Part shown: one piece after another, positions 26,160 through 48,933 of the stretch
Layout: each line of letters opens with the position of its first letter
Position numbering within the stretch: position 1 is the first letter of the stretch
Source: a virus
Taxonomy: Duplodnaviria; Heunggongvirae; Uroviricota; Caudoviricetes
DNA: 51,634 nucleotides
Virus record (IMG/VR): IMGVR_UViG_3300037851_000307
Span: 1-51,634 of that record
Strand: one strand, 5' to 3'
Notes under the pieces: model-generated
What the model saw: the letters and a program-made list of their open reading frames with translations, nothing else
Database searches by the model: none
Told to the model about the DNA's origin: nothing
Translations under genes and position numbers: made by a program

Positions 26160-26851
26160 TGCTATACAAAGATAAATATGGATATCCAGTAGAAGCTAGA
26201 TACGACGGTGGAGATTCTGCTGTTCGCATTGGTATTTTAGCGCTATGCGAAAAAGAAAACGACACCAAAAAGATGTCATCATATGAAGTTGAACCAGGTA
26301 TGCTTACTCGCCATCCAACGCAATTTCCTTGGAATAATCCCAAGAATTACTCTAGAGACCAACTGATGTGTTTTTTGGCTGGCTTAAACAAACTTCAAAT
26401 GACCGATTTAGCAAAAAGGGTTTTTTGGTCTCGATTTAAGTCATTTTTCTTTGCTCAAAATATTGAGCGCGATGTACCTGGTAGCAGAAAATATCCATGG
26501 CCACATTGCTTTAACAGAATGGAAGATGGCTTGGAAGAATGTAGGAAATTTGATTTTGCAGATCCGCTCCTTCCAAATCATATCTGGGCCATGATCAAAA
26601 CAGCAAAAATATATTGGTTATATTGGTTTGCACCAATTGGTGTCATGTTTTATATACTTACGCTCATTGGTCATAGTTTGGGTAAACACTACGAAGAAAA
26701 CCAGTTAATCTGCGAATCTTCTATAAACGGTAAATGGGCCTTGTGGCTTTATAAATTGATTAACAAAAAATGGGAATCAGTTAGCTTTAAATACTGGGAA
26801 GATAGAGGCGAAATAGAGTACCACGATATGCTTAAGAAGTTTCTTTCTTAG
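26159..26851 (+). CDS. Hypothetical protein, ~230 aa, helical with a hydrophobic C-terminal segment
   Basis: ATG at 26159 overlaps the previous stop (TAATG), so it is a better start than 26138. Motifs DGGDSA, RHP.Q.PW, SRDQ. Confidence 0.6.
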   Translation: MLYKDKYGYPVEARYDGGDSAVRIGILALCEKENDTKKMSSYEVEPGMLTRHPTQFPWNNPKNYSRDQLMCFLAGLNKLQMTDLAKRVFWSRFKSFFFAQNIERDVPGSRKYPWPHCFNRMEDGLEECRKFDFADPLLPNHIWAMIKTAKIYWLYWFAPIGVMFYILTLIGHSLGKHYEENQLICESSINGKWALWLYKLINKKWESVSFKYWEDRGEIEYHDMLKKFLS

Positions 26852-27002
26852 CGTGTTTAGTTTTTCTAGAATATTTCTTCTTATCTTTAAAGATTTTAGT
26901 AGGTGGAGCAGTTGGCTTTCTTAATTTTTTAAAAAGCCATTGATCTAATTCTTTCGAATTCACTTTTCCATCTTTATTCGGTTTTGGTCTCTTCTTGCTC
27001 AT
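26832..27002 (-). CDS. Unannotated 56-aa highly basic protein with ArfA-like KKKYSRKTKH motif
   Basis: Hand translation: MSKKRPKPNKDGKVNSKELDQWLFKKLRKPTAPPTKIFKDKKKYSRKTKHAKKETS*. GGGG about 7 nt upstream of the ATG. Overlaps the end of the upstream co-oriented gene and fills an otherwise empty gap. Confidence 0.6.
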   Translation of the reverse strand: MSKKRPKPNKDGKVNSKELDQWLFKKLRKPTAPPTKIFKDKKKYSRKTKHAKKETS

Positions 27003-27405
27003 CTAAAACCCCAACATCTTCTAACAAAGCTTGTGTTATATCTATGTACTCTACCAGATCTTTTCCAGGATTGGCGTTAAGAAAAATGTTAGACCATGTA
27101 ATCTTTAATCCTGTTGCGCGCAAATCTTGCCAAGATTGTGCATCGTTCCAAAGTATCTCTAACTTAACATGAGGATCAACCAATTTAAATTGCTCATCTA
27201 ACATCTTACAGTTTGCGGTAAGCATTCTGTCAAAATCTACTGGATCTTTATGAAAACCATACATCTTCTCCATTTCTTTTAAGAAAGTAAAGAAATGTTT
27301 AGCATACGACGCTTTCTTGGCTGTACGAGCCTTCAATTCTTTCAACCGCTTTGCTCTTTTTGCAATACGATCTAGCATCTTTGTTCTCTCAGATCTATTA
27401 GACAC
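26974..27405 (-). CDS. Hypothetical protein, 143 aa
   Basis: Co-oriented and overlapping with the primase gene; basic N-terminus. Confidence 0.65.
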   Translation of the reverse strand: MSNRSERTKMLDRIAKRAKRLKELKARTAKKASYAKHFFTFLKEMEKMYGFHKDPVDFDRMLTANCKMLDEQFKLVDPHVKLEILWNDAQSWQDLRATGLKITWSNIFLNANPGKDLVEYIDITQALLEDVGVLDEQEETKTE

Positions 27406-28270
27406 TTTGCACCTGTTTTAAGAACCATTTAGCGAACTCTTCGTGATTCATTCTTTTCAGAACATCATTCCAATCTTCTTTAGCATCCATAGTTAATGCA
27501 TAATGAGATATTGCGTCTGATTCTTTTAGTTTTTGCAACATCATTAGTCCTGCTTCGTCTGAGTCTGGTGCTCCGATGACTCTGAGTCCTTGTTTTTTAA
27601 GTTCTCCGAGCGTTTCTTTTTGATGTGCTGATAAACCAGAACCGGAACAAGCAATAACCCTCCAGGGACTACGAGTAATACCACCAAATATTTGATTAAG
27701 TGACTGTTGAATTGCCAACGCATTAAAAGCACCTTCTGTTACTATAACACCTTTGATGTCAGTAACAAACTTATCTTGATTCCAATTATAAAACACAAGT
27801 CCTAATCTTGTTCCTGGCAGTGTGTCAATTTTTCTCTCATCTCCATGCTTATCAACCCATGTTTGTAAAAAGCGCACTTGAGCGCCCACAAAAACATTAT
27901 TGTAATAATATGGAAATACAATACCTTTGCGTTCAAGATCGTAGTACATATCGCCTTCGATCTTTAAACCTCTAGATTGAATATACTCGATGCCTGGTTT
28001 TGCTCTAGGATCAGATAGGGTGATGAAATTAGTGGGCCATTCCATCTTATTGACTTCATTTGGTTTTGCCTCTACGAAGTCAAAGTCACCTTTTAGGAAC
28101 TCATTTAATGGGATATCAGCATGATGACAATAAGAATACAAAGAATAACCTCTTTTGCACTTACCTACACAATAAACCCATATTTGTCCATTATCTGGGT
28201 CTATGTGCCAGTGCAAGCAATCATTCTTCTTCCCGTCCTTGCAAATCAGGCACTTTTTGGTACTGATCAT
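27398..28270 (-). CDS. DNA primase (Zn-binding + TOPRIM), 290 aa
   Basis: N-terminal CLIC..CVGKC zinc ligands; TOPRIM motifs IVTEGAFNALA and PDSDEAG. Confidence 0.85.
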   Translation of the reverse strand: MISTKKCLICKDGKKNDCLHWHIDPDNGQIWVYCVGKCKRGYSLYSYCHHADIPLNEFLKGDFDFVEAKPNEVNKMEWPTNFITLSDPRAKPGIEYIQSRGLKIEGDMYYDLERKGIVFPYYYNNVFVGAQVRFLQTWVDKHGDERKIDTLPGTRLGLVFYNWNQDKFVTDIKGVIVTEGAFNALAIQQSLNQIFGGITRSPWRVIACSGSGLSAHQKETLGELKKQGLRVIGAPDSDEAGLMMLQKLKESDAISHYALTMDAKEDWNDVLKRMNHEEFAKWFLKQVQSV

Positions 28271-29276
28271 ACTTACCTTCTACTTCTGTAGCTATTTTAT
28301 CCAATTTTCTTTGGATAATTGATTGTTTAAACTCTTCTGTCATATTTACATAGCGACCCTTATTAAAGCCACATAGTATCCTGTTTCCTTGCATACCAAA
28401 ACGATCTTTATGGATGATAAATTCAGTAGTTTGATCATCGAAATTAGGTATTGCCTCTAATACAACAGTTGATGGCTCTAAGATTGCTGGGCACTCTTTA
28501 ATCCTGCTATCTAAATCTTTATTCTGCCTTTTACCAATAGAGTGCAGCTGAGCAAACACGACAATTGGTACGTTTGAGTTTTTGATATATTGACCAAGCC
28601 ATATACGAAAATCATTCAACACATCATATCTGCTTCTAGTTTTATCTAAAGCAGAATATTGTATAAGCTGATAATAATCTATTAACGCACAAGAGTAATC
28701 AGCGTCTTTTACCGCTAAAAGAGCATTCTTGACGCCTTCAAGTTTAGTGGTTAAACCGTCTTTATAGTTAACATCTAATACCTTTACGTGCTGTGATATC
28801 TCAGGGAATCGCTTCACAATCTCCGATTGAATATTGATTGGCATAGAGCCCTTTTTATAATCATTAAAATTATAACCAAGCTCTAAACAAGCAATACGAA
28901 ACAATACGTCTTGTTTTGATTCCTCGTTTGTTAAAACTAAAGTCTTTTTGCCCTGTTTCCAAAGAGGAAACGTTATGTTTGCGGCTATGGTACTTTTACC
29001 AGAACCAGTATAGGCAGCTATTAGATATAGATTTTCTCGTGTAAACGGGATAGCAGCCGTGAGCGAATCATTGATAAAAGTTATCTTCTCAGACAACATC
29101 TTATTGTATTTAGATATGTCTGTAAACATCTCTTTTAGAGAATCTTTATCACCAAATGAATCAACGTCATCTAGAGATACATCGAGATGAGAAATGTCTG
29201 GCGCAGCCTGCTGATTGTATTTTTTAGGTGCATTGTCCATAATCTGTTTTACTGCCTCAGGAGTTAACTTACTCAT
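28221..29276 (-). CDS. dnaB: DnaB-like (SF4) replicative helicase, compact, 351 aa
   Basis: Walker A AAYTGSGKST, Walker B LIDYYQLI, FAQL and KDRFG motifs; adjacent to primase. Confidence 0.85.
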   Translation of the reverse strand: MSKLTPEAVKQIMDNAPKKYNQQAAPDISHLDVSLDDVDSFGDKDSLKEMFTDISKYNKMLSEKITFINDSLTAAIPFTRENLYLIAAYTGSGKSTIAANITFPLWKQGKKTLVLTNEESKQDVLFRIACLELGYNFNDYKKGSMPINIQSEIVKRFPEISQHVKVLDVNYKDGLTTKLEGVKNALLAVKDADYSCALIDYYQLIQYSALDKTRSRYDVLNDFRIWLGQYIKNSNVPIVVFAQLHSIGKRQNKDLDSRIKECPAILEPSTVVLEAIPNFDDQTTEFIIHKDRFGMQGNRILCGFNKGRYVNMTEEFKQSIIQRKLDKIATEVEGKYDQYQKVPDLQGREEE

Positions 29277-29781
29277 CTTTTTCTCCTAAGTCTACATCTA
29301 ATGGCTGTGTCAAGTCGACCTCTAATTGTTTCATTCTTTGCTGAATCTCTTCAAATGTGATAATTGGAAAAGATTCAGCATATTTTCTTTGTGCTCTGTA
29401 TTCTCTAGCACTCATTTTTCCAAACTGCGGTTCTTCTTTCGGAGATTGGCCGTCGTAGAAAGCATAGAACGATTGTACCGCTGTTTCTTTAATGTCTTTT
29501 TTCCAACCATCTATAAACTCTTGATAAGACTTTTTATCAGCACCTTTTCTTTTCTCTGTTGCATCATAGGTTTTTCTAGCAATAAAGTCAGATGGATAAT
29601 GCGCTTTTGCCGCAGTCTCTATTATCTCATGCGCTGTATCAAAATCTATATCTGCATTAAATAAAGCATTAAACAGATCATCGAAATTAGAAGAAACATT
29701 TGCTCTACTTCTATCTTTGTCTTTTAACTCTGCTGTCCATTTTTCTAAAATGACAGTAGCAACTTTATCAGCTTTACTCAT
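29269..29781 (-). CDS. Hypothetical helical protein (possible helicase partner), ~170 aa
   Basis: Overlaps the helicase start. ATG 29781 has AAGGTG upstream. Confidence 0.6.
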   Translation of the reverse strand: MSKADKVATVILEKWTAELKDKDRSRANVSSNFDDLFNALFNADIDFDTAHEIIETAAKAHYPSDFIARKTYDATEKRKGADKKSYQEFIDGWKKDIKETAVQSFYAFYDGQSPKEEPQFGKMSAREYRAQRKYAESFPIITFEEIQQRMKQLEVDLTQPLDVDLGEKDE

Positions 29782-29974
29782 TGTCATCACCTTCTATAGA
29801 TTGAGAGCTAACTATTTCAGTACTGTCTTTTAAGTTCGTAATGAGAATTTTAGCACTGTTGTGCTCTTTATCGATATGTAACAGCTCTACTTTGTACTCA
29901 TCATTGATGATAAACGGCTTCTTTTTACCAAGCCACCAATAGAGTGAATCCTTGATCTTCTTAGCGTAACCCAT
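29774..29974 (-). CDS. Hypothetical protein, 66 aa
   Basis: GGAGG Shine-Dalgarno before the ATG; first gene of the minus-strand island. Confidence 0.7.
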   Translation of the reverse strand: MGYAKKIKDSLYWWLGKKKPFIINDEYKVELLHIDKEHNSAKILITNLKDSTEIVSSQSIEGDDNE

Positions 29975-30013
29975 AAACCTCCAAACGGTTCAAATAAAAA
30001 CATTCTTTGTTAT

Positions 30014-30049
30014 TTTATACCAAACAAAAAATCATGCCAGCGGTACAAT
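30014..30049. promoter_or_regulatory. Divergent promoter pair: minus-strand G-TATAAA (30020-30014) and plus-strand G-TACAAT (30043-30049)
   Basis: Located at the strand switch. The plus-strand element is 6 nt before ATG 30056. Confidence 0.6.
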
Positions 30050-30055
30050 AGATAC

Positions 30056-31441: not shown

Positions 31442-31656
31442 TGATGAAACGCAAGAAAGAAGAGCTTCTCAACAAGATATACAATCTACATCCTCCAGTT
31501 AATATTCCACAGAGTATAAGCAATAGTCCATTGGGCTATGAACTGCAGCAAATGATTCAAAATGCCATAAAATGGCATACTCAAGAGATTGCTAGAATTA
31601 TAGTAGAAGACTTATATACTCAAGAAGACTTTGAAGAAGATTTAGGACTTAAATAA
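31438..31656 (+). CDS. Hypothetical protein, 72 aa
   Basis: ATGA overlap with the helicase; acidic C-terminus. Confidence 0.6.
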   Translation: MMMKRKKEELLNKIYNLHPPVNIPQSISNSPLGYELQQMIQNAIKWHTQEIARIIVEDLYTQEDFEEDLGLK

Positions 31657-31675: not shown

Positions 31676-33106
31676 GTGTTAACTTTACAGCAACTATCTG
31701 ACATTGGAAAAGAACTAATTGGAAGCCTAGATAAAATTAAGGCTTCCAATGCCAGCATTGCTGAAGTTCAAGCCGAGAGAGAAGCTCTCTTAAAGAAAAA
31801 TAATAATTTTAAAACATTTTACGATAAATTCAACAACATGGCCATGTATTACGAAACAGAAAAAAGATGGCTCGATGGCACAACATATACCCAAATACCT
31901 TGGACCCAAATAGATGATGCAGCTCAAAGAAAAACGGGCAACGTTCACTACACAGGATCTTGGGATAAGTATTCACCACAAATAACAGCAAACATAAATT
32001 CTAATCCTACTTCTACAAGCGGTGGACACGAGAATATTACACTCAATGACACACTACAAAACAGTGGCTTGATTGCTTTAATAGATTTTATGACAACAGG
32101 TCAATCTGGTGTTTCTGCTAACACATTAGATGCACCATACAATCCTGGTGATCCAACTATAACTTTAACATCTGGAACTCAAACTATAGGTAAATATCTT
32201 TTAATATCAGGATCTAGTAGATCTGCTTTAGTTCTTGTAACAAATGCTTCTGGCACAACAATAACGATCACAGAAGTAATTGCACCTACAGGCACAATAG
32301 GCGTTGGTGGATCTGTTGTTGAAAACTTTGGTGGCTTCAGTAATACAGAATTAAATACCCTTACATCTGTGTCTTATCAATATGTATTAAATGAATTAGC
32401 CACAAGAGTCATAAATAGAGTTACAACTTGGGAAACTGTATTAAATAGTCAACTTTCACAACTTAATTTAAATACAGATCCAGACTACTTAACGCAAAAT
32501 AATGCTGCAAAGACATCTATAAATACAGCAAAAACCAATATAGATACCTGGCAAACCCTTCCTAATACTGGAACCCTTGGCACAGACAGCAAATTTACCT
32601 CTAATAATCTACCTTTATTGAGTGCTCAATATACAGCAAGAAACTCATTTAGACCAACTAGGGCAAGTCAAATCACAGCAGCCCTTGGTTTAGCTACCCA
32701 AGATTCTCAAGGCAATATAGGCGGAACTGGGGTTTATTCTAAGCGCTTTAAGGCTATAAGCTTAATGATAAATGGTATCGATGGACCTTTGTATCAATAT
32801 TATGCAAAATTGAAGCAAATCGATGTTTCTAAACAGACCATCCAAAATGAACAACAAAAACAAGAGCTATTTAGTACCTCTGTTAGAAGTGCTCCTTTAG
32901 CAGTAAATGGCACTGGTGCTAATATTGTGTCTGTAAAGAGTTCAAGCGGCTTTAATATCGGCGATACTGTATTACTTATTGCTAACTCACAAGATGACTT
33001 ACAGGCCACTATAACTGGTATATCTGGCAATAATGTTACATTATCTAAACCAGTGCCAAACACATATACTTTAAGTTTAAAGTCTACAATAGTCAAAGCT
33101 ATATAG
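31676..33106 (+). CDS. Probable virion-associated protein (coiled coil + beta modules), 476 aa
   Basis: Thr/Asn/Gln-rich composition like the tail genes. Two small beta-barrel-like modules similar to those in the baseplate proteins (e.g. VKSSSGFNIGDTVLL..ITGISGNNVTL). Confidence 0.45.
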   Translation: MLTLQQLSDIGKELIGSLDKIKASNASIAEVQAEREALLKKNNNFKTFYDKFNNMAMYYETEKRWLDGTTYTQIPWTQIDDAAQRKTGNVHYTGSWDKYSPQITANINSNPTSTSGGHENITLNDTLQNSGLIALIDFMTTGQSGVSANTLDAPYNPGDPTITLTSGTQTIGKYLLISGSSRSALVLVTNASGTTITITEVIAPTGTIGVGGSVVENFGGFSNTELNTLTSVSYQYVLNELATRVINRVTTWETVLNSQLSQLNLNTDPDYLTQNNAAKTSINTAKTNIDTWQTLPNTGTLGTDSKFTSNNLPLLSAQYTARNSFRPTRASQITAALGLATQDSQGNIGGTGVYSKRFKAISLMINGIDGPLYQYYAKLKQIDVSKQTIQNEQQKQELFSTSVRSAPLAVNGTGANIVSVKSSSGFNIGDTVLLIANSQDDLQATITGISGNNVTLSKPVPNTYTLSLKSTIVKAI

Positions 33107-33112
33107 TATAAT
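33106..33112 (+). promoter_or_regulatory. -10 element (G-TATAAT), 6 nt before ATG 33119
   Basis: Recurring motif with fixed spacing; no Shine-Dalgarno. Confidence 0.6.
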
Positions 33113-33118
33113 TAGCTT

Positions 33119-33661
33119 ATGATATCACTTAAAGAACTATTATTAAATAGAGTTGAATTCAAAGATCTCCCAAAAGAGCATCAAGATAATTTAAACACTC
33201 TTTTAGAAAGAATCAATAAAGTGCGAGCTGTATATGGAAAACCTATGAAGGTTAACGATGGTTACAGACGTCTTCAAGATACTCCTAAAAATGGTTCAGC
33301 AACTTCATGGCACTATAAAGGCGCTGCGGTTGACATAGATGATAATGATGCCGGCGATTTTGCTAAATGGGTTGTTAAGAATTTAAAGCTCATGCAGGAA
33401 GTTGGTCTTTGGATAGAGGATGTTCGCTGGACCAACGGATGTGGTTCATGGGTTCATTTCCAAATATATCCTCCTAAATCTGGAAAGCGAGTTTTTATAC
33501 CATCTACTAAACCAGCTTGTAACCCAAAAATATGGGATGGAAAGTATGACCCTATTTTCGACAAAGAAAGTAAAATAAAGGATGTGCTTCCTGATGGTCC
33601 TTCTGATGATGATATTAACGTAACCCTGGAAGAAATCGAGAAAGAAGCACTTAAGAAGTAG
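33119..33661 (+). CDS. Peptidase M15 family cell-wall hydrolase (endolysin candidate), 180 aa
   Basis: VNDGYR..SWHYKGAAVDI..WVH zinc-peptidase motifs. Confidence 0.85.
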   Translation: MISLKELLLNRVEFKDLPKEHQDNLNTLLERINKVRAVYGKPMKVNDGYRRLQDTPKNGSATSWHYKGAAVDIDDNDAGDFAKWVVKNLKLMQEVGLWIEDVRWTNGCGSWVHFQIYPPKSGKRVFIPSTKPACNPKIWDGKYDPIFDKESKIKDVLPDGPSDDDINVTLEEIEKEALKK

Positions 33662-33666: not shown

Positions 33667-34254
33667 ATGAAAATTCCTAGAATTTATTTAAGCGCAGTTG
33701 GTGCTATAGATGTCGTCTATGCCCATGACTTCATTAAATTACTTATCTCTTTAAAACAAAAACAAATCGATGAAGTTTTATTAAACAACGCTATTGAAGT
33801 AGCAGTTTTAAATTCTAAACAAATAGATACAGGAGAAGAGCATGTTGAATTTGCTTATCCAGGCGACATTTTTACCGGAGCCTATTTTCCAGCAGATGAT
33901 CCAACTAGGGATTGGGCTTCTGATATTACTAGGATAAAATATCCTTTTCAGAATACAGATGATGATCTAGAGGGTTGTCTTCTTAAACAGTTATATTCCT
34001 GTGTTGATATCTATAAACATGATGACTTAACGGACGCCGTTAATGCTTTTGAAGTTGCGTCTTTAGAGAGCTTAGAAAACTTTGGTAGTCCTACTCACAT
34101 AGTGTTCTTAAAGCCTAAAACTTTCATTGTAGCAAATCCTGAAGAGTGGGAAATTCAAGTTAAAGATTTTAATGGTATAATTAAAGCTGTAATATATCCA
34201 ACAAGAAAACATGCGCGATATGCGATGGAGGCACCTAATGTATTAGATTTCTAA
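33667..34254 (+). CDS. Hypothetical acidic protein, 195 aa
   Basis: Intact ORF with AGGTG Shine-Dalgarno; no recognised motif. Confidence 0.65.
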   Translation: MKIPRIYLSAVGAIDVVYAHDFIKLLISLKQKQIDEVLLNNAIEVAVLNSKQIDTGEEHVEFAYPGDIFTGAYFPADDPTRDWASDITRIKYPFQNTDDDLEGCLLKQLYSCVDIYKHDDLTDAVNAFEVASLESLENFGSPTHIVFLKPKTFIVANPEEWEIQVKDFNGIIKAVIYPTRKHARYAMEAPNVLDF

Positions 34255-34318
34255 ACCCCCTTGAGTAGTCTTATTAAGTATCAAGTATTTCAATCATACA
34301 ACTTAATAAGGAGAAATT

Positions 34319-34657
34319 ATGGAATTTCAAAGAGACCCAAGAAAAGAAAGATTAATAGCTAATATAAAGATTCTAAAAGCAGAACTTAAAGTTCTTGCAG
34401 TAGAAATAAGACAATTAAAATCAACAAGAAAGCAATGCAAAAACGGATATGTTTCTGGTTTAGGCAATAAACAGAACGAGTTTCGTATTAAGCATATAGC
34501 TAGATGTTTGCTTCGTGGAAGAACGTTAGAGCAAATCGAACCAAAGCTAAAAGATCCTATGGATCCAAACCATACATACGTAAGAACGATGGCTGCTGCT
34601 GTTGTAAAGAAAGTCATGGAGGTAGCAGATGGCGAAGCTCTACGTGCTAGTTCGTAA
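34319..34657 (+). CDS. Basic hypothetical protein with HIARCLLRGR..EQIE motif, 112 aa
   Basis: Strong AAGGAG Shine-Dalgarno; overlaps the Pth2-like gene by 29 nt. Confidence 0.75.
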   Translation: MEFQRDPRKERLIANIKILKAELKVLAVEIRQLKSTRKQCKNGYVSGLGNKQNEFRIKHIARCLLRGRTLEQIEPKLKDPMDPNHTYVRTMAAAVVKKVMEVADGEALRASS

Positions 34658-34934
34658 CGAAGATCTTCCAAAGAACTATCAAGCAGTACAAGCTGGGCAC
34701 GCAGTTGCCCAGTTTTGTCTAGAGCATCCAGATAAATGGAAGAACGAAACCCTCGTATACTTAAGAGGTGGAGATCTTAACCAGATATTTGATTGGTGGA
34801 CAGTTCTTTGCGATAATAAAATAAAGGATATGTCTTATTTTCAAGAGCCAGATATAGACTATGAGATGACCGCAATAGCTGTACTGTCTAACGAAAAAAC
34901 AGACGAACTGTTCAAAGATATGAGATTAGTATAA
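34629..34934 (+). CDS. Peptidyl-tRNA hydrolase type 2 (Pth2/PTRHD1)-like protein, 101 aa
   Basis: KLYVLVRNEDL..QAVQAGHAV..W..TLVYL..EPD..MTAIAV..LFKDMRLV matches the Pth2 fold pattern (KMVVVIRNDL..AQGGHA..TAVAI..LKLL). GGAGG Shine-Dalgarno. Confidence 0.75.
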   Translation: MAKLYVLVRNEDLPKNYQAVQAGHAVAQFCLEHPDKWKNETLVYLRGGDLNQIFDWWTVLCDNKIKDMSYFQEPDIDYEMTAIAVLSNEKTDELFKDMRLV

Positions 34935-34952: not shown

Positions 34953-35040
34953 GCGGGTCGTGTACAAAACTCACAGCGAGAAGAGCTTATAATTCTTCAG
35001 CTGTACAAGTTTAGGGAGTGAAGCCCTACGATCCGCGCCA
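34953..35040 (+). ncRNA. Atypical tRNA-like RNA ending in G-CCA, with 13-bp acceptor+T branch and CU-UAU-AA loop
   Basis: GCGGGTCG(T) pairs with (A)CGATCCGC, followed by G-CCA. TAGGG/CCCTA T-like stem has the non-canonical loop AGTGAAG. GAAGAG/TTCTTC stem closes the 7-nt loop CTTATAA. No canonical D-arm. Confidence 0.65.
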
Positions 35041-35052: not shown

Positions 35053-35128
35053 GCGTCATTAAGCTCAGTGGTAGAGCTAGTGCCTCTAAAGCACCTGGTC
35101 GCAGGTTCGAATCCTGTATGACGCTCCA
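35053..35128 (+). tRNA. Amber-suppressor tRNA (anticodon CUA) with glycine-type acceptor stem, 76 nt, encoded CCA
   Basis: Acceptor GCGTCAT/ATGACGC + T + CCA; D arm GCTC-AGTGGTA-GAGC; anticodon stem (A)GTGC/GCAC(C) with loop CT-CTA-AA; 5-nt variable loop; T arm GCAGG-TTCGAAT-CCTGT. Confidence 0.9.
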
Positions 35129-35148: not shown

Positions 35149-35300
35149 GGATTGAACATAATCCTGAAAATTATTGCTAACTAATCCCCTCTGCGCGTGA
35201 AACGCGCACATCATTTGTTGGAACAACAAATGTAAGCTAACAGATAGGGTAAGAATAGAGTGGGGTGGATATATCTAGGATTTATGGTACCCGCGAAACA
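35149..35300. other. Hairpin-rich non-coding element (ncRNA or DNA structural element)
   Basis: Perfect hairpins at 35192-35208 (7 bp) and 35212-35232 (9 bp), both with GAA loops. GGATT/AATCC hairpin at 35149-35164. Possible long-range pairing of 35186-35192 with 35257-35264. No ORF. Confidence 0.45.
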
Positions 35301-36870: not shown

Positions 36871-37581
36871 TTGGACAATCTTACGACCCTTTTTCAAACA
36901 AATGTTAGAATTGCCAATATAAACCCTTTAGATAGGGATGCCGTTTGGCCTATGAACATAGAGTGCTGCATCACAAGAATCCCAATTAGAAAAAGGGATG
37001 GCTATGAACCTGAGTTAATTAAGCAACTTATAGCAAAACTTAAAACTCATATGGTTCCAAATGGCATAGTGTTCTTTATCTGTTATGCTCCAACAGAGGC
37101 AAAATTTAGGCCATTTGAAGTCGCAAAGATGATGACTGATGAAGGCTTTACTCATATCGATAATATAATTGTCGAGAAAACCTGGTTCCCAGGTAAACGT
37201 TCAGAAACAAATTTAGTTAACTCTCATGAGTATGTTTTGCATTTCTGTAATGGAAATGTATGGAAATTAGATCGTCTTCCTATTCGTAAATATCTTAAAA
37301 CACCAGAATCTATATCTTGTCCAGGCAATACTTGGAAAGTTGAAACTGGATCACTTGATGAATCTTATCCAATAGATTTAGCAGAGCTCTTAATACGTAT
37401 GACTGATGCCTTGCCGGGATCTATAATTTTTGATCCCTACATGGGAACTCAATCTTCACTAAGAGCTGCTGTAAAACTTGGTCACTCGTTTTATGGCTTT
37501 GAACAAGATTCCCGAAAAATGAAAAAATATGATAAGTTAGCAAAGGATTATGCTAAAACCGGAAAATTTGAGGATGAGTAG
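36871..37581 (+). CDS. N6/N4 DNA methyltransferase-fold protein with degenerate catalytic motif, 236 aa
   Basis: Beta-class layout (..YPIDLAELLI..IFDPYMGTQSSLRAAVKLGHSFYGFE), but CITRIPI stands where (S/D/N)PPY is expected. TTG start with GGAG upstream. Confidence 0.75.
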   Translation: MDNLTTLFQTNVRIANINPLDRDAVWPMNIECCITRIPIRKRDGYEPELIKQLIAKLKTHMVPNGIVFFICYAPTEAKFRPFEVAKMMTDEGFTHIDNIIVEKTWFPGKRSETNLVNSHEYVLHFCNGNVWKLDRLPIRKYLKTPESISCPGNTWKVETGSLDESYPIDLAELLIRMTDALPGSIIFDPYMGTQSSLRAAVKLGHSFYGFEQDSRKMKKYDKLAKDYAKTGKFEDE

Positions 37582-42176: not shown

Positions 42177-42623
42177 ATGAGTAACTTTTTAAAGAAAATA
42201 GAGAGTTTAGGTGATCTTTTAAAGCAATTTAATGCTTCTATTAAGCAACCTAAAATGGCCGGCGTTAAACCACCAAAAACTAGTGCCCCTAAGTTACCCG
42301 GAATGCCATCTCAAAATCATAAAGATCCTGTTAAGGTTGCTCAACAAATTAAGGATGCTGGTTCTGGCGCTAAACCTATTGCAATGGAAGCTGCTAACCA
42401 GATTAAAGAATCATATAAAACTTCTAAAAATGGTCAATGGTCAATATCTAAAGCTGAAGTTAAGAAGCCAGAGGCTCCTAAAATAGCTGATGCTTACCAT
42501 ATTCATGTCAATGGTGAAAGAATAACTGATAAGCCATTAACTAGACAGCAAATCATCAAAAGATATGGCTCTGTTCAAAGACTTGAATCTAGTGGGCATC
42601 TTTTAGTTCCACATAAAGATTAG
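42177..42623 (+). CDS. Hypothetical Lys/Pro-rich protein, 148 aa
   Basis: Intact ORF with leaderless-type start geometry. Confidence 0.7.
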   Translation: MSNFLKKIESLGDLLKQFNASIKQPKMAGVKPPKTSAPKLPGMPSQNHKDPVKVAQQIKDAGSGAKPIAMEAANQIKESYKTSKNGQWSISKAEVKKPEAPKIADAYHIHVNGERITDKPLTRQQIIKRYGSVQRLESSGHLLVPHKD

Positions 42624-42629
42624 TATAAT
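42623..42629 (+). promoter_or_regulatory. -10 element (G-TATAAT), 6 nt before ATG 42636
   Basis: Recurring motif with fixed spacing; no Shine-Dalgarno. Confidence 0.6.
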
Positions 42630-42635
42630 TGCCTA

Positions 42636-43187
42636 ATGGCAAAGAAACGTCCTCCTTTTAATCAAAACGCAGCGATTCGATCCGCAATAAGGCGTGTATT
42701 TTCGCGTTCCCCTATTGTCAGGGAGATGATGTCTGCTGTTAGAAGAGAAGTACCTAAGTTTAACAAAGATGGATCTAGAGCTAAGAAAGATGCAGTTCAG
42801 TATCAATGTAACGTGTGTAAAACCTGGACAAAAAGTACAGCTATTGCTGTAGATCACAAAAATCCAGTTATTGATGTCGAAGATGGATTCGTTGATTGGA
42901 ACACTTTTGTTGATAGATTGTTTTGCGGGCCAGAAAACTTACAGGTAGTTTGCGATACTTGCCATCAAGAAAAAACCAACAAAGAACGCTTTGATAGATC
43001 TTTTATTAAAGATCAAGAGATATTAAAAAATATAGAACGAGTAGCCCCAGATTGGGACATTGAATTTGTTACTAAATTTGCTAAAAAATTCACAGCTAGC
43101 AAACTTAGCTTATATCCTAAAGACTTCACAGATCGCATTATTCGCCTTAAAGAACAATTGCGTGGTAGAAATAGGAAGAGCAAATAG
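42636..43187 (+). CDS. HNH endonuclease, 183 aa
   Basis: YQCNVC..VDHKNP..NLQVVCDTCHQEKT. Confidence 0.85.
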   Translation: MAKKRPPFNQNAAIRSAIRRVFSRSPIVREMMSAVRREVPKFNKDGSRAKKDAVQYQCNVCKTWTKSTAIAVDHKNPVIDVEDGFVDWNTFVDRLFCGPENLQVVCDTCHQEKTNKERFDRSFIKDQEILKNIERVAPDWDIEFVTKFAKKFTASKLSLYPKDFTDRIIRLKEQLRGRNRKSK

Positions 43188-43501: not shown

Positions 43502-43512
43502 TTGGAGGACTA

Positions 43513-43851
43513 ATGAGTTTAAAAACAGATTACCTTAACGGCCCTAATGGTTACTATGAACAAATGCAGGATGTTTTTACCCAAGGTGAAAACTGGGTAA
43601 CATCAAACAATGGTGCCATTTCGGCAGCATTGGTTGCAAATGCTGCTAAGGGATTAAGAACGTTTACAGTAAATTTACCTGTTGCTTTTGAGCCAACGAA
43701 TTTACGTCTACTTGGAAATCATTGGCTTTCATTTCAAGCTGGCGTAGTATCTGGTCTTGCTGCACAAGATATTTATAGTTATGAGTGTAATGTCGAATTA
43801 AATACAGATGATGCACTTACAACCAGTATCGACTTGAATTTCACGTTTTAA
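43513..43851 (+). CDS. Hypothetical protein, 112 aa
   Basis: GGAGG Shine-Dalgarno; followed by a terminator. Confidence 0.7.
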   Translation: MSLKTDYLNGPNGYYEQMQDVFTQGENWVTSNNGAISAALVANAAKGLRTFTVNLPVAFEPTNLRLLGNHWLSFQAGVVSGLAAQDIYSYECNVELNTDDALTTSIDLNFTF

Positions 43852-43874
43852 TTTAACATCAAAGCTCTTAATTG

Positions 43875-43908
43875 AAACCCAAGGAAGTATAAATACCTTG
43901 GGTTTTTT
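43875..43908 (+). terminator. Rho-independent terminator-like hairpin
   Basis: AAACCCAAGG / CCTTGGGTTT 10-bp stem followed by a T-run; the loop is AAGTATAAATA. Confidence 0.7.
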
Positions 43909-43923
43909 ATTTTAGGAGATTAG

Positions 43924-46900
43924 ATGACAAAACGTTTTAAGGAACCAGCCCAATTACATAATCACAGCAAATATAGTCTATTAGACGCAGTACCTTCACC
44001 AGAAGAATGGGTTCAATGGTGTCTAGATAGCGGTACTCCAGGTTTTGCAATCACTGACCATGGAACTGCCATCTCAATGTACGATGCAATTCGCTTTCCT
44101 AAGATTATTGAAGATATAAATAAAGAAAATAAAGATCTAAATAAGAAAAACGGTACAAATCTTAGAACAGATTATGATCCAAAGTCTGTTATTGGTATTC
44201 CTGCTGTTGAACTGTATGTTAAATTAAACGCTCAAGATAAAGGCCATTACCATATTACAGCTTGGGCTGTAAGTAATGAAGGTTATCAAAATTTAATGAA
44301 ACTATCTTCGTTGGCTTTCAATGACACAGTTTCTTATTACGGAAACATAAAAGGCCGAGTTACATTTGATTTAATAAAGCAATATAAAAAGGGTTTAAAA
44401 TTCGGCACTGGTTGCATTGCTGGCCCTATAGGGCATGCTTTTGCTTTTGAGGACAACAAGGAACTTGCAGAAGAAAGATTCCTCTTTTACAAAGAGATGT
44501 TTGGCGATGATTTGTATGTAGAGTTTCATTGCGGTGACGTTACACATGAGTTTAATAAGACAACGGGTGGATTTGATCCATTTGAGCCTACTTGTCATTG
44601 CGAAGATGGAAATAAGCAAAAAGCTTACAATAGATTTTTAGCAGACATGATTGATAAGCATGGCGGTAAGGGTATTCCAGTTACCGATGCTCATTTTATT
44701 AAGCCAGAAGATAAGATTATTCAAGACTGTTTACTTAAAAACGGTAATGATAATGGTTGGTACTTTCAAGAGTCTTATCATCAATTTACAGCTGATGAAA
44801 TGTTTAAGAAGCTTAAAATTCATTTAGGCGATTGGTTAACTGAAACTAAGTTTGAGCAGTGGATTGAAAATACATATGAAGTTATGAATGCTGCTGCAAA
44901 CATAAATATTAAGTTTGATTACCACTTGCCTCAAATCCCTATTCCAGATCACATTAAGGCAAAAACCGATGATTATAATGCACAAACGTATTATTTCATG
45001 ATGGAGAAGATCAAAGAACACGGGAGATGGAATAATTCACCAGAATATGTGGCTCGCTTTAAACAGGAGTTAGACGTTATTAAAGATAATGCTACTTTAA
45101 ACTTCATACCGTATTTCTTATTGTATGAAGATATTGGCGCTTTTTGTAGAAGTAAGGGTATCTTGCAAAACATAGCTCGTGGTTCTGCCGGCGGATCTTT
45201 ATTGAGTTATTATCTTAAAATCATACATGTAGATCCTATTAGAGCCAATTTGCCATTTGAAAGATTCTTATCACATGCACGTATTAAAGCTGGATCATTT
45301 CCAGATATTGATGCAGATATCGGTGACGTCGCTAGACCATACGTAATGCGTTTTTTAATGGATAAATATGGACTAGGTTTTGCTCAAATAGCTACTTTTA
45401 ATAAAATGAAGACAAAGAATGCCATAAAGGATTCAATGTACGCTCTTTATGGTAAAAATAGAAACGATCCAGAAGTTGTAGCTATATGTAATGCTATCGA
45501 TGACTCGCCTCAAGGTATTGATGAACATGATTTTTTATATGGTTACACTGATAAAGAAGGTGTTTATCACGAGGGAGAAGTAGAGAAGAAGCAAGTTCTT
45601 GCTACTTTTCTTGATAGAAACCCTGATGTTAAAAACATGGTTGATAAGCTTATCGGTATGCCAAGAGGATGGTCAAGACATGCTTCTGCGTTTGTTATAT
45701 CTACGTTAGATATATCTAACGGTCGTGTTCCAACTATGATAATGGAAGACGCAAATGTTGGTGCTATACCAGTTACTCAGTATGATGCTACAATGGTAGA
45801 AAAATGCGGCTTAGTTAAAGCAGATATTCTTGGTTTGAAAACATTAAGTGTTGTATCTGATTGCGTAAAGATGATTAAAGATAAGCATGGAGTTGACTTA
45901 TTGAGAGAATCTCAACCTGGTCTGTCTTTAATATATGATTTACCTGAAGATCAAGGTGTTTATGCCGATTTTTATCGTAAAGATACAGATTCATCTTTTC
46001 AATTTAACTCTGATGTCATTAAAGGATGCGTTACTGATTTCGTGCCTACTCAGAGAGAGCATTTAAGTACAATGACTGCATTAATGCGTCCTGGTGCAAT
46101 GGACGCAAAAATGGATCTAGGTGATGGAAGCACTGATTCTATCACTGCAGCTAATTTTTATATTAAGGTACGTAAAGGCGATATGGATGTGAGATACATT
46201 CATCCTGATCTAGAGCCTTTCTTGAAAGATACCAATGGTGTTATTGTTTATCAAGAGCAAGTAATGGCTATTTTAGTTGCTATATGTGGATATACTCTTG
46301 AAGAGACAGATACAATTCGTTCTGCTATTGCTAAAAAGAAACACGACGTAATGATGTCAGCTTTTGACAAGATCAGAGAAAACACTTCTAAACGTGGATG
46401 GTCAAAAGAGCAAGCTAATGCGCTATGCGATACAATTATGGCTTTTTCGCGATATTCTTTTAATAGATCGCACTCTTGGGCTTATGCTGAATTGGGGTAC
46501 ATTACGATGTACCTTAAACATCACTATAATTTAGAATGGTGGTGTTCTGTTTTAAACAATGAAGATAAAGAAGATAAGATTAGAAAGTACATTTCTCTTC
46601 TTGGAGAAACTGTTAGACATGCTTCTTTAAAGACACCTACAGATAAATTCACTGTTATTGGTGACTATATTGTGGCGCCTGTTTCTGTTATCAAAGGTGT
46701 TGGTCCTGCTGTCGTCAGTGAACTTGTAAGCAAAGGTCCTTTTAATGATTTAAAGGATTTTATAGATCGCGTTAGTCATAGTAAAGTCAATATCGGAGCT
46801 ATATCTTCCCTTATTAAAGGAAGAGCCGCTGATGATCTAATGAGACAAGATATTCCTTATGCAGAAGCTCGTAGGCAGTTTATGAATGATTATTTGGCAT

Positions 46901-47409
46901 TAAAGAAAAGCAAAACACCTTTCAAGCCAGAAATGTATCAACTAGATCCTTTAGCTATATTTCTAGCTGAGCGTGACTTTAATAAGTGTTTTAATAAGAA
47001 TTTATTAGACGATGTAGATATCTTGAATTCTATTAAGAACACTTGGCCTGGTTTAAAGCCCACTGATAGAAGAGCAATACCATTTACTATGAAAGGTATG
47101 CCAGTTTTAAATAGCATTAAGGTGGCTGAAGGTTTGTTGAATAAAGATTTTGAGCAAGAAGTTGGTTTAATTCTACTGTATGAATCTTCATCAACACGAA
47201 GCGGTGTCTCTAAAAATGGTAAACCTTGGTCGTTAACTTCTGTAACGCTATCTGATGGATATGTTAATTTAGAAGCCACTGATTGGAATAGAAAATCTGC
47301 TTTTAAATGGAATAAGAACTCAATTGTCTTTGTAAGAGGAACTTTGAAAAAAGGTTGGAAAACACCAGTAAGTATAAATATCTCTGAAATTGAGAAAATA
47401 GAAAGGTAA
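43924..47409 (+). CDS. dnaE: DNA polymerase III alpha subunit (family C), 1161 aa
   Basis: PHP domain HNHSKYSLLD..ITDHG, RGSAGGS, PDIDAD, HASA, KADILGLKTL, YQEQVM, FNRSH and a C-terminal OB fold. Confidence 0.97.
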   Translation: MTKRFKEPAQLHNHSKYSLLDAVPSPEEWVQWCLDSGTPGFAITDHGTAISMYDAIRFPKIIEDINKENKDLNKKNGTNLRTDYDPKSVIGIPAVELYVKLNAQDKGHYHITAWAVSNEGYQNLMKLSSLAFNDTVSYYGNIKGRVTFDLIKQYKKGLKFGTGCIAGPIGHAFAFEDNKELAEERFLFYKEMFGDDLYVEFHCGDVTHEFNKTTGGFDPFEPTCHCEDGNKQKAYNRFLADMIDKHGGKGIPVTDAHFIKPEDKIIQDCLLKNGNDNGWYFQESYHQFTADEMFKKLKIHLGDWLTETKFEQWIENTYEVMNAAANINIKFDYHLPQIPIPDHIKAKTDDYNAQTYYFMMEKIKEHGRWNNSPEYVARFKQELDVIKDNATLNFIPYFLLYEDIGAFCRSKGILQNIARGSAGGSLLSYYLKIIHVDPIRANLPFERFLSHARIKAGSFPDIDADIGDVARPYVMRFLMDKYGLGFAQIATFNKMKTKNAIKDSMYALYGKNRNDPEVVAICNAIDDSPQGIDEHDFLYGYTDKEGVYHEGEVEKKQVLATFLDRNPDVKNMVDKLIGMPRGWSRHASAFVISTLDISNGRVPTMIMEDANVGAIPVTQYDATMVEKCGLVKADILGLKTLSVVSDCVKMIKDKHGVDLLRESQPGLSLIYDLPEDQGVYADFYRKDTDSSFQFNSDVIKGCVTDFVPTQREHLSTMTALMRPGAMDAKMDLGDGSTDSITAANFYIKVRKGDMDVRYIHPDLEPFLKDTNGVIVYQEQVMAILVAICGYTLEETDTIRSAIAKKKHDVMMSAFDKIRENTSKRGWSKEQANALCDTIMAFSRYSFNRSHSWAYAELGYITMYLKHHYNLEWWCSVLNNEDKEDKIRKYISLLGETVRHASLKTPTDKFTVIGDYIVAPVSVIKGVGPAVVSELVSKGPFNDLKDFIDRVSHSKVNIGAISSLIKGRAADDLMRQDIPYAEARRQFMNDYLALKKSKTPFKPEMYQLDPLAIFLAERDFNKCFNKNLLDDVDILNSIKNTWPGLKPTDRRAIPFTMKGMPVLNSIKVAEGLLNKDFEQEVGLILLYESSSTRSGVSKNGKPWSLTSVTLSDGYVNLEATDWNRKSAFKWNKNSIVFVRGTLKKGWKTPVSINISEIEKIER

Positions 47410-47411
47410 AA

Positions 47412-47834
47412 ATGGCAAAAGTAATTTTAACAGATTCTAAAGAATCTATAAAAAAAGATGAAATGGTTATTTCTATGCCGTCTTTTATGGAAGAGATTAA
47501 GGCGTCACATAGAAAAGCATCTGGAAAGCAGGTTACATCTGTTCATCACTTAAGAGAGATTGTTACTTTGATTTCTGAGAAGTACGATAAAGATTTTAAT
47601 TTCTACGCTAGAATACCTTATTCTAACTATGAAGGTATAGCTTATCAAACAGATGAAGATATAAGTAAAATCATGTTTAATATTCTAAGTAAGCATAGTC
47701 CTGACTTACTCACAAAGGTAATAGATTACTCTATTAAAAATAGACCGGTTAATGTAAAGACTATTTACTTTACTGGCCCTGAAACTTACTTAAAAATATT
47801 TTTTGATAATGGTATTGCTCTTGAAGAGCAGTAA
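47412..47834 (+). CDS. Hypothetical protein, 140 aa
   Basis: Intact ORF between dnaE and the SSB gene, with GAAAGG Shine-Dalgarno. Confidence 0.7.
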   Translation: MAKVILTDSKESIKKDEMVISMPSFMEEIKASHRKASGKQVTSVHHLREIVTLISEKYDKDFNFYARIPYSNYEGIAYQTDEDISKIMFNILSKHSPDLLTKVIDYSIKNRPVNVKTIYFTGPETYLKIFFDNGIALEEQ

Positions 47835-47836
47835 TG

Positions 47837-47845
47837 TGGTATAAT
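47837..47845 (+). promoter_or_regulatory. Extended -10 (TGG-TATAAT), 6 nt before minigene ATG 47852
   Basis: TGn extended -10 consensus; intergenic. Confidence 0.65.
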
Positions 47846-47851
47846 TTATAC

Positions 47852-47894
47852 ATGCCGTAAAACGGTAGTTAACAATAATGCCTTAAATGGTAGT
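47852..47894 (+). promoter_or_regulatory. Tandem repeat ATGCC-N-TAAA-(A)Y-GGTAGT (two Met-Pro-stop minigenes / hairpins) in the SSB leader
   Basis: ATGCCGTAAAACGGTAGT at 47852-47869 and ATGCCTTAAATGGTAGT at 47878-47894, abutting the AGGAG at 47895. Confidence 0.55.
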
Positions 47895-47904
47895 AGGAGA
47901 CAAT

Positions 47905-48933
47905 ATGTCAAAGATCAATATCAACATGGATTCTTTAAAAGGTAAAAAAGAGTGGAAACGCCACAAGGTCAATCCTGGCCACAATACCTTTCGAATTCTT
48001 CCTCCATTCGGAGATCAAGCCAACGGTTACCCATACAAAAAATGGATGATTATCTGGGGAATGTTAGACCCTGAATCAGGTCGCATGCGCCCTTTCGCTA
48101 GTTCTTTAACTACTGAAAAGCGTTGTCCTGTGACTGAATACGTTGAAGCTTTACAGAAAAAAGCTGAGGCAATCAAAGGCCGCTTGCAAGCTGCTGGTAA
48201 ATCAGAAGCTGATATTAAGGAAGCCCTTAAAGGCATCAACAAAGTTATTGGCAATTTAAGACCAAAAACTGTTTATGCATATAATGCTGCAGACAAATCT
48301 GGCACAGTAGGTATTTTAGAAGTGAAATCTACTGCTCATAAAGTATTAAAAACTTTAATGATGACTTATATCAAGGATTACAATCAAGATCCAACGTCAT
48401 TAAACAGTGATCCAGATGATTCTGGGGTATGGTTTGATTTTATTCGAACTGGAGAAGGTTTTTCAACAGAATATGATGTTGAAAAGCTACAAATGAAAAC
48501 TAAAGTCAATGGTCAACTTACGTTTGTTGACGACAGATCACCTCTTCCTGAAAACGTTGTAGAAAACTACACAGATATGGCCTATGACCTATCATCTATT
48601 TATCAGATTAAGTCATACGATGATCTAAAAGAAATCTTAATGGCTAATCTTAAACAAATCGCTAAGGAGTGTCCAGATGCGATCGTGGATGGTTTCAGTG
48701 ATTTCTCGGGTGTCGGCGAAATTGAGACAGATGAAGGTGCGACGAATAGCCAATCGGGTTCTAAAGAAGCATCATCACGTGTTTCAACGACTCAGGGAAG
48801 CGGAACAAACGGAAAAGGAAAAGTAAATATCAACTTAAATGATGACGATGCAGATGACGAAGCAAAACCGACATCTAAAGCATCAGTTGACGATGATATC
48901 TTTGCTTTAGCAGACAATATTTTAAATAGCTAA
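47905..48933 (+). CDS. gp32-like single-stranded DNA-binding protein, ~342 aa
   Basis: NTFRILPP..CPVTEY..AYN..GILEV..G..F...GEG..TEY pattern with an acidic C-terminal tail. ATG 47905 follows AGGAG. Confidence 0.8.
   Translation: MSKININMDSLKGKKEWKRHKVNPGHNTFRILPPFGDQANGYPYKKWMIIWGMLDPESGRMRPFASSLTTEKRCPVTEYVEALQKKAEAIKGRLQAAGKSEADIKEALKGINKVIGNLRPKTVYAYNAADKSGTVGILEVKSTAHKVLKTLMMTYIKDYNQDPTSLNSDPDDSGVWFDFIRTGEGFSTEYDVEKLQMKTKVNGQLTFVDDRSPLPENVVENYTDMAYDLSSIYQIKSYDDLKEILMANLKQIAKECPDAIVDGFSDFSGVGEIETDEGATNSQSGSKEASSRVSTTQGSGTNGKGKVNINLNDDDADDEAKPTSKASVDDDIFALADNILNS

What the first reader, a model, noticed from the sequence alone, without database searches (positions are those of the whole stretch)
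26832..47907. Candidate phage translation-termination control system (synthesis of separate elements)
One window holds an amber suppressor, a tRNA mimic, a Pth2-like protein, an ArfA-like peptide, Met-Pro-stop minigenes and many leaderless starts. All act at initiation, termination or ribosome rescue. Known biology links them: minigenes cause peptidyl-tRNA drop-off that needs Pth (lambda bar), Pro-stop slows termination, and suppression creates run-through/non-stop ribosomes needing rescue. Hypothesis: the phage rewires termination and supplies its own clean-up factors. The linkage is inference; the elements could be independent.
Basis: inference. Interest (0 to 1): 0.75.

Follow-up and report, generated by a model that had tools for sequence, protein, structure and literature searches.

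The report
Amber-readthrough switch beside phage suppressor tRNA
Only part of the proposed "termination control system" holds up: a compact phage cassette whose tiny leader gene must have its UAG stop codon read through, most likely by the phage's own suppressor tRNA, before two downstream genes can be translated, which would give the puzzling suppressor tRNAs of normal-code phages a target.

Summary
All six listed elements exist, but they are not one system. It consists of an SD-led leader (34238-34264, M-Y-UAG-I-S-K-P-P-stop) with a hairpin hiding the next ribosome-binding site, a helical 112-aa gene, the Pth2-fold gene and tRNA(CUA). In this phage clade the four parts are all present (25 loci) or all absent (34). 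In distant phages 95 of 101 loci carry a suppressor tRNA, and all 58 Pro-Pro-stop leaders contain UAG. Lak phages, which read UAG as Gln, have UAA plus tRNA(UUA) instead. Modelling says the hairpin opens only when a ribosome passes the amber and sits at the final stop. The ArfA-like peptide, the Met-Pro-stop 'minigenes' (0 of 64 relatives; really a hairpin loop), the tRNA mimic and the leaderless starts are not parts of the cassette. The genome is not recoded. What the output proteins do is unknown, and nothing is tested experimentally. I found no published description. This scan had already reported the same switch in other phage genomes; I reached it before looking.

The parts
34227..34231 (+). 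Shine-Dalgarno (GGAGG) of the leader ORF
   Evidence: sequence; purine-rich SD-like sites precede most homologous leaders
34238..34264 (+). Amber-containing leader ORF, M-Y-UAG-I-S-K-P-P-UGA; overlaps the last codons of ORF 33667-34254 in another frame
   Evidence: 28 clade homologues; amber at codon 3 in 24, K/R before Pro-Pro in 25, all four wobble bases used at both Pro codons, length changes only in whole codons
34269..34311 (+). Hairpin pairing the bases just after the leader stop (34269-34279) with 34301-34311, covering part of the ORF112 SD (34309-34313)
   Evidence: a hairpin over the ORF112 start region is predicted in all 28 loci; cognate arm pairs -11.8 vs non-cognate -6.9 kcal/mol
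34319..34657 (+). ORF112: helical-hairpin protein with a conserved R-x-x-H-I-A-x-C-x-x-R-G motif; fused to the Pth2-fold domain in 15 of 28 relatives; no named family
   Evidence: (690 homologues)
34629..34934 (+). Pth2-fold protein; keeps the Q-x-x-H motif and an invariant Glu and Thr, but the Pth2 G-K lysine aligns to Gln
   Evidence: model of a fused homologue matches P. horikoshii Pth2 1wn2 at Z 11.0, rmsd 2.5 A over 99 residues
35053..35128 (+). Suppressor tRNA(CUA) with encoded CCA and U73; separate from the genome's 15 ordinary tRNAs at 105-111 kb
   Evidence: a suppressor tRNA lies within 3 kb in 95 of 101 loci
34953..35040 (+). tRNA-like RNA (9-bp acceptor-like stem, 4-bp T-like arm, G-CCA): real structure, a variable passenger rather than a core part
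   Evidence: z -3.9; no relative (best blastn E 0.7); absent in 6 cassettes
47852..47886 (+). Not part of the cassette: two small hairpin repeats in the SSB (gp32-like) leader; the Met-Pro-stop reading is incidental
   Evidence: 0 of 64 relatives keep the stop; a short hairpin after the TGGTATAAT promoter is kept in most
26832..27002 (-). Not part of the cassette: basic 56-aa DUF7230-like peptide with a C-terminal K-H

Best explanation
The core is a translational attenuator gated by amber readthrough. A ribosome starts at the leader and meets UAG at codon 3. If RF1 terminates there, the hairpin downstream stays closed and hides the ORF112 ribosome-binding site (OFF). If the phage's charged tRNA(CUA) wins, the ribosome runs on to K-P-P-stop, where termination after Pro-Pro is slow. 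It then sits on the 5' arm of the hairpin and frees the SD, so ORF112 and the coupled or fused Pth2-fold protein are made (ON). The cassette therefore reports the ratio of charged suppressor tRNA to free RF1. The most likely output is a two-domain factor acting on tRNA 3' ends (peptidyl- or aminoacyl-tRNA hydrolysis or binding) that limits or cleans up after suppression. Shown by sequence comparison: the architecture, its conservation, the matching of codon and anticodon, and the fold. Inferred: stalling, the direction of the switch, charging of the tRNA. Least certain (about 0.5): the output's activity.
For: All-or-none co-occurrence of leader, ORF112, Pth2-fold gene and tRNA(CUA) in 25 vs 34 loci, patchy on the tree with 9 changes. 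In wider phages, 95 of 101 loci have a suppressor tRNA within 3 kb. With any internal stop allowed, 58 of 58 Pro-Pro-stop leaders carry TAG, in 90 kb of upstream DNA, against 10 (2 TAG) in 1.1 Mb elsewhere. Selection acts on the peptide: synonymous Pro codons vary, K/R substitute, indels keep frame, and one leader has 15 codons after the amber. Modelled SD accessibility is 0.17 free, 0.17 with a ribosome at the amber and 0.58 at the final stop (higher in 26 of 28 loci). Cognate hairpin arms beat all 20,000 permutations. Four Lak genomes (TAG = Gln) have a UAA leader ending in R-G-P or R-G-S-P next to tRNA(UUA); PMC8346664 reports that tRNA in 51 of 51 Lak phages with no TAA recoding. Cultured XacN1, Xoo-sp13 and RAS14 have UAG at codon 3-4, in frame with an HD-like/Pth2-fold fusion gene, and encode tRNA(CUA). 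Pro-Pro-stop is among the strongest termination-stalling ends in E. coli (10.1101/751305).
Against: The footprint model is my assumption (15 nt upstream of the A site to 9 nt beyond the stop); two loci (L013, L138) did not open in it. About 40% of distant loci have no Pro-Pro-stop leader; many have amber leaders ending otherwise (F-W, G-F-P, G-F-T), and some show none. Mycobacteriophages have a Pth gene next to tRNA(CUA) with no leader found. Here the leader overlaps the end of ORF 33667-34254, so ribosomes ending that gene could interfere. The host is unknown. Related sequences inflate the permutation test.
Confidence: 0.75

Rival explanations
1. Same switch, different purpose: tRNA(CUA) is a sentinel or timer. 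Its build-up, or its survival against host tRNA-cleaving defences, licenses late expression of a tRNA-repair or counter-defence factor, rather than a factor that cleans up after suppression. This competes only with the output step of the best explanation.
For: The tRNA often has its own -10 box a few bases upstream, so it is probably made independently of the attenuator. Its acceptor end varies (discriminator A 19, U 12, G 10, C 1 among 42), so the inserted amino acid seems not to matter. HD-like domains are fused to or next to the Pth2 fold in several phages; HD domains occur in tRNA-end repair enzymes (own knowledge).
Against: No HD-like gene in this genome (the record is 69% complete and the search had no positive control). 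A Pth2 fold points more directly to peptidyl-tRNA.
Confidence: 0.3
2. One reading: suppressor, tRNA mimic, Pth2-like protein, ArfA-like peptide, Met-Pro-stop minigenes and leaderless starts form one coordinated termination-control programme.
For: All elements exist in one 21-kb stretch. Leaderless helicase starts are commoner in cassette-bearing loci (22/24 vs 14/28). The 56-aa peptide has the K-H motif shared by ArfA and BrfA (PMC8012679).
Against: The ArfA-like peptide is distributed independently of the cassette and has no ArfA match. Minigenes are not conserved (0/64). The mimic is dispensable. Most loci without a leaderless helicase start fall in two clades, so shared ancestry confounds that excess. 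No TAG depletion.
Confidence: 0.06
3. The cassette is a precursor or remnant of TAG-to-amino-acid recoding, and the tRNA serves to read TAG in ordinary phage genes.
For: Suppressor acquisition by standard-code relatives of recoded phages is a published model (10.1101/2021.08.26.457843). One relative has an in-frame TAG inside the HD-like gene after the cassette (L102).
Against: Coding density is highest under code 11 (94.4% vs 92.8% for code 15). TAG share is unchanged. The in-frame TAG junction at 42623 ends in TAA in the two relatives checked. In fully recoded Lak phages the cassette persists with UAA.
Confidence: 0.07
4. The leader is not translated through: the conserved C-C-N-C-C-N-stop is an RNA-level element (an anti-SD look-alike of the 16S rRNA 3' end) and the TAG is incidental.
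For: CCU-CCU-UAA resembles the 16S 3' end (own knowledge), and it occurs in several leaders.
Against: Third positions take all four bases, which would break anti-SD pairing; frame is kept across indels; the internal stop tracks the tRNA anticodon.
Confidence: 0.04

Closest known systems
Leader-peptide translational attenuation (ermC, cat/cmlA, secM-secA; TnaC stalls at Pro-stop) and RAPP/RGPP arrest-peptide uORFs (PMC12992588, PMC10987492, PMC10951233)
   Same: A short uORF stalls a ribosome on the 5' arm of a hairpin and unmasks the next gene's SD; the arrest end is proline-rich.
   Different: The input is not a drug, metabolite or secretion force but readthrough of an in-frame stop by a tRNA encoded in the same cassette. 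The leader is 8 codons and ends K-P-P-stop, not R-A/G-P-P. It is phage-borne.
prfB (RF2) autoregulation by frameshifting at an in-frame UGA (own knowledge)
   Same: An early in-frame stop senses release-factor activity and gates expression of a translation factor.
   Different: The bypass is by a dedicated suppressor tRNA, not a +1 frameshift; the stop is UAG/RF1; the output is a separate gene pair behind a hairpin.
Stop-codon recoding in phages, code 15 (crAss-like, Lak; 10.1101/2021.08.26.457843, PMC8346664)
   Same: A phage suppressor tRNA overrides a host stop codon and can gate gene expression.
   Different: This genome uses TAG as a normal stop; the only conserved target found is one leader codon; the tRNA has no fixed amino-acid identity.
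Pth2 peptidyl-tRNA hydrolases (PF01981) and the PTRHD1-like branch (the latter from own knowledge)
   Same: Same fold (Z 11.0 to 1wn2) and the Q-x-x-H motif.
   Different: The G-K lysine is replaced, the D-A-G-x-T loop is replaced by E-P-D, and an N-terminal helical partner is added.
Orphan suppressor tRNAs of standard-code phages (XacN1, PMC5852040; Zeta crAss-like, PMC12386605)
   Same: tRNA(CUA) in a genome with no recoding and no known target.
   Different: A conserved target is identified here; in XacN1 itself it is the start of ORF364.

Membership tests
Leader-peptide translational attenuator | Translatable uORF with its own SD, conserved at the peptide level | tested here: met
Leader-peptide translational attenuator | Hairpin sequestering the downstream SD, within reach of a ribosome at the stall site | tested here: met
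   (computed folding and arm-swap test)
Leader-peptide translational attenuator | Signal-dependent ribosome stalling that induces the downstream gene | not testable with these tools
   needs toeprinting and reporters
RAPP/RGPP arrest peptides | R-A/G-P-P motif | tested here: not met
   window leader ends S-K-P-P-stop; R-G-P-P occurs only in some distant leaders such as L268 and L289
Pth2 (PF01981) | Pth2 fold | tested here: met
Pth2 (PF01981) | Conserved catalytic Lys of the G-K motif and D-A-G-x-T loop (catalytic roles from own knowledge) | tested here: not met
   Lys aligns to Gln; E-P-D replaces the loop
Pth2 (PF01981) | Peptidyl-tRNA hydrolase activity | not testable with these tools
   needs an enzyme assay
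ArfA (PF03889) | Sequence match to the family profile | tested here: not met
ArfA/BrfA-type rescue factor | Basic C-terminal tail with K-H motif | tested here: met
   sequence of 26832-27002(-); motif described in PMC8012679
ArfA/BrfA-type rescue factor | RF2 recruitment on non-stop ribosomes | not testable with these tools
   needs an in vitro rescue assay
Code-15 recoded phage | In-frame TAG in many genes and higher coding density under code 15 | tested here: not met
lambda bar-type toxic minigenes | Conserved translated two-codon ORF | tested here: not met
   0 of 64 relatives keep the stop
Amber suppressor tRNA | Cloverleaf with C32-U33-CUA-A37 loop and CCA end | tested here: met
Amber suppressor tRNA | Aminoacylation and readthrough in the host | not testable with these tools
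   host unknown; needs a suppression assay

The most novel reading that the evidence does not exclude
Phages across many unrelated lineages carry a portable sensor of translation termination: a dedicated suppressor tRNA competes with the host release factor at one test codon and so controls a new Pth2-fold factor acting on tRNA or termination. The test codon and anticodon are swapped together (UAG/CUA to UAA/UUA) when the phage recodes UAG. This would be the original job of many phage suppressor tRNAs and a plausible stepping stone to full stop-codon recoding.
Probability: 0.45. Interest if true: 0.9.

Novelty: new variant of a known kind. Interest (0 to 1): 0.78.

Why it matters
Papers ask why standard-code phages keep 'non-functioning' suppressor tRNAs (PMC12386605), found no target for the XacN1 tRNA(CUA) genes (PMC5852040), and report an unexplained UAA suppressor in 51 of 51 Lak phages (PMC8346664). 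This cassette gives a concrete target for the XacN1 and Lak cases (Zeta crAss-like phages were not examined). It makes the question testable with a simple reporter and in cultured phages (XacN1, Xoo-sp13, RAS14). It would be a natural genetic switch built on competition between a suppressor tRNA and a release factor, and it points to an uncharacterised Pth2-fold protein family.

Tried and rejected
Recoding: codes 15 and 4 give lower coding density. In-frame TAG junctions at 33106 and 42623 follow from the geometry TAG-TATAAT-N6-ATG; the 42623 junction ends in TAA in the two relatives checked. ArfA identity: Pfam, PDB and the 5.8-billion-protein search found only the protein itself (sensitivity is limited for 56 aa). 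Gly identity of the tRNA as a general feature: discriminators vary. The tRNA mimic as a known RNA family: no Rfam match. ORF112 function: no useful family or Atlas hit, only generic helical-hairpin matches; a profile comparison with the upstream ORF of one distant locus was not significant, so those ORFs are only suggestive relatives. Complex prediction of the fused protein with E. coli RF1 gave no answer either way. A first iterative HMM script timed out. No RF-1-family gene in this record (69% complete). The genome-contig scan gave 9 scattered MAG contigs with no consistent host lineage. Ten literature searches, four of them aimed at this arrangement, found no description of the switch; the library lacks most subscription papers. 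Cassette-negative status was judged on the helicase-to-methyltransferase interval, not on whole genomes.
Full report
Setting. The window is the first 51.6 kb of a 115,634-bp virus record, estimated 69% complete; complete relatives are 166-177 kb. It is an uncultured phage whose DnaE-like polymerase has no relative above about 30% identity among the top cultured-phage hits. It uses the standard code: coding density is 94.4% under code 11 against 92.8% under code 15, and 25 of 144 ORFs end in TAG. Fifteen ordinary tRNAs lie at 105-111 kb; tRNA(CUA) at 35053-35128 stands alone.

Checking the listed elements. The tRNA(CUA), the tRNA-like RNA (z -3.9), the Pth2-fold ORF and the leaderless starts (17 observed vs 6.5 expected) are real. 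The 56-aa 'ArfA-like' ORF has a basic K-H tail but matches only DUF7230, below threshold, and not ArfA. ATG-Pro-stop occurs 14 times against 8.2 expected, within the simulated range of 4-18.

The missing piece. Two relatives found through GroEL showed the same order as the window: ORF112, Pth2-fold gene, tRNA(CUA). In front of each is a short SD-led ORF with an in-frame amber that ends K-P-P-stop. In the window it lies at 34238-34264. I then collected 102 non-redundant clade loci through the conserved methyltransferase-like gene. Among the 59 that span helicase to methyltransferase, 25 have all four parts and 34 have none (the one apparent gap, L112, has a divergent Pth2-like ORF). Presence changes at least 9 times on a helicase plus methyltransferase tree of 50 loci, so the four parts move as a cassette. 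ORF112 and the Pth2-fold gene are fused in 15 of 28 loci.

The leader is under selection as a peptide read through the amber. In 28 leaders the amber is codon 3 in 24, K or R precedes Pro-Pro in 25, both Pro codons use all four third bases, the final stop is TAA, TGA or TAG, and insertions of up to 10 codons keep frame. Each leader is followed by a 48-62 nt spacer that folds into a hairpin over the ORF112 start region. Mean modelled probability that the SD is unpaired is 0.17 for free RNA, 0.17 with a ribosome footprint at the amber and 0.58 with it at the final stop (higher in 26 of 28; Wilcoxon p 4e-8). Cognate 5' and 3' arms pair at -11.8 kcal/mol against -6.9 for swapped arms, beyond all 20,000 permutations (relatedness inflates this). 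Pro-Pro-stop is a known strong termination-stalling end in E. coli (10.1101/751305).

Beyond the clade. Searches with ORF112 and Pth2-fold alignments gave 101 non-redundant loci, counting one Lak locus and some clade members, from contigs of up to about 470 kb. Ninety-five have a suppressor tRNA within 3 kb, CUA in all but the Lak locus. A pattern allowing any internal stop found 58 Pro-Pro-stop leaders in 90 kb upstream of these genes, all with TAG, against 10 (2 TAG) in 1.1 Mb of other DNA. Many of the remaining loci have amber leaders with other ends; some show none. Two natural variants test the logic. First, in four Lak genomes, where TAG means Gln, the leader has TAA, ends in R-G-P or R-G-S-P, and sits next to tRNA(UUA). 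PMC8346664 found this TAA suppressor in 51 of 51 Lak phages without TAA recoding. Second, in cultured XacN1, Xoo-sp13 and RAS14, an SD-led M-K-(K)-amber is in frame with an HD-like/Pth2-fold fusion. In RAS14 the homology continues upstream of the annotated GTG with no ATG after the amber, so the full-length protein would need readthrough. All three encode tRNA(CUA); the XacN1 paper found no target for it. Mycobacteriophages have a Pth gene near tRNA(CUA) but no leader that I could find.

The output proteins. An AlphaFold2 model of a fused homologue (pLDDT 90.7, pTM 0.83) has a long helical hairpin followed by a Pth2 fold. The top ten Foldseek hits are the Pth2-family structures TA0108, MJ0051, AF2095, Bit1 and S. 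solfataricus Pth, and VIA gives Z 11.0, rmsd 2.5 A over 99 residues to 1wn2. The Q-x-x-H motif, a Glu and a Thr are invariant, but the Pth2 lysine aligns to Gln, so hydrolase activity is uncertain. The helical part has no informative match. Forty-two distinct tRNA(CUA) genes share G1-C72 in 40 cases but use A, U, G or C at position 73. This suggests that readthrough matters and the amino acid does not.

What is not part of it. DUF7230-like peptides occur in 2 of 6 complete relatives, one with the cassette and one lacking it at the syntenic site, and were not found in two complete cassette-bearing genomes. None of 64 relatives' SSB leaders has Met-Pro-stop. What is conserved there is the promoter and a short hairpin; in the ten most similar leaders ATG-CC-N is followed by varying sense codons. 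This fits an SSB operator like that of T4 gene 32 (inference from own knowledge). The tRNA mimic has no relative. The same slot holds other structured RNAs in other loci, or nothing in six. Leaderless helicase starts occur in 22 of 24 cassette loci and 14 of 28 without, with most exceptions falling in two clades; the cassette's own protein genes are SD-led. TAG makes up 13.0% and 12.3% of stops with and without the cassette.

Mechanism and confidence. OFF when RF1 terminates at the amber; ON when tRNA(CUA) reads through, the ribosome pauses at Pro-Pro-stop and the SD is freed. Architecture, conservation, codon-anticodon matching and fold are shown. Stalling, the direction of the switch and charging of the tRNA are inferred. 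The output function (clean-up or feedback on suppression, or a sentinel role against tRNA damage) is open.

Relation to what is known. It works like leader-peptide attenuation and, in logic, like prfB autoregulation. It is not a RAPP/RGPP peptide by motif (PMC12992588), not a recoded phage, and not a canonical Pth2. I found no published description. The scan's own notes report the same switch and the amber-at-codon-3 variant in other genomes. I had recorded the leader and the co-occurrence before opening them, and they are not counted as evidence.

Noticed in passing
L363:940, L364:937, L365:940 (XacN1 ORF364, Xoo-sp13 gene 327, RAS14): SD-led M-K-(K)-amber start in frame with an HD-like/Pth2-fold fusion gene in cultured jumbo phages that encode tRNA(CUA); the annotated starts lie downstream of the amber.
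   Followed up: partly
L224:1734-2797, L347, L368, L369 (Lak A2, B7, C1, B6): Ochre version of the cassette: tRNA(UUA), then a leader with in-frame TAA and an R-G-(S)-P motif resembling SecM-type arrest ends.
   Followed up: partly
L102:7217-7714: HD-like gene right after the Pth2-fold gene carries an in-frame TAG where homologues have Arg.
   Followed up: no
L250:2805-2885, L246:2811-2889, L249:2810-2886, L255:2824-2902: tRNA-like genes with enlarged, irregular anticodon arms directly upstream of the amber leader in a subclade.
   Followed up: partly
L225:3563-3707, L226:3765-3932; also L009, L011, L013, L015, L017 and L038, L101, L105, L119 between the Pth2-fold gene and tRNA(CUA): 145-170 nt tRNA-like genes with large insertions, and at least two other recurring structured RNAs without an Rfam match.
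   Followed up: no
window 47840-47900: SSB leader: promoter TGGTATAAT followed by one or two short hairpins whose stem bases appear to covary across relatives (seen by eye, not counted); candidate autoregulatory operator.
   Followed up: partly
window 33104-33119 and 42621-42636: The upstream gene's TAG stop abuts the -10 box of a leaderless promoter, which puts the next gene in frame.
   Followed up: partly
window 36871-37581: Methyltransferase-like gene is among the most conserved clade markers (58-86% identity) although it appears to lack the usual catalytic motif.
   Followed up: no
genome 106947-107038 (-), outside the window: 92-nt tRNA with UAU anticodon and a long variable arm.
   Followed up: no
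window 35149-35290: Adjacent perfect hairpins after tRNA(CUA); one scores as terminator-like.
   Followed up: no
L241:5020-5316: A cassette-bearing relative encodes an RNase P class A RNA inside its tRNA cluster.
   Followed up: no
L349:2477-3087, L367:1477-2173: Ceeclamvirinae mycobacteriophages have an annotated peptidyl-tRNA hydrolase followed by tRNA(CUA), with no amber leader found.
   Followed up: partly
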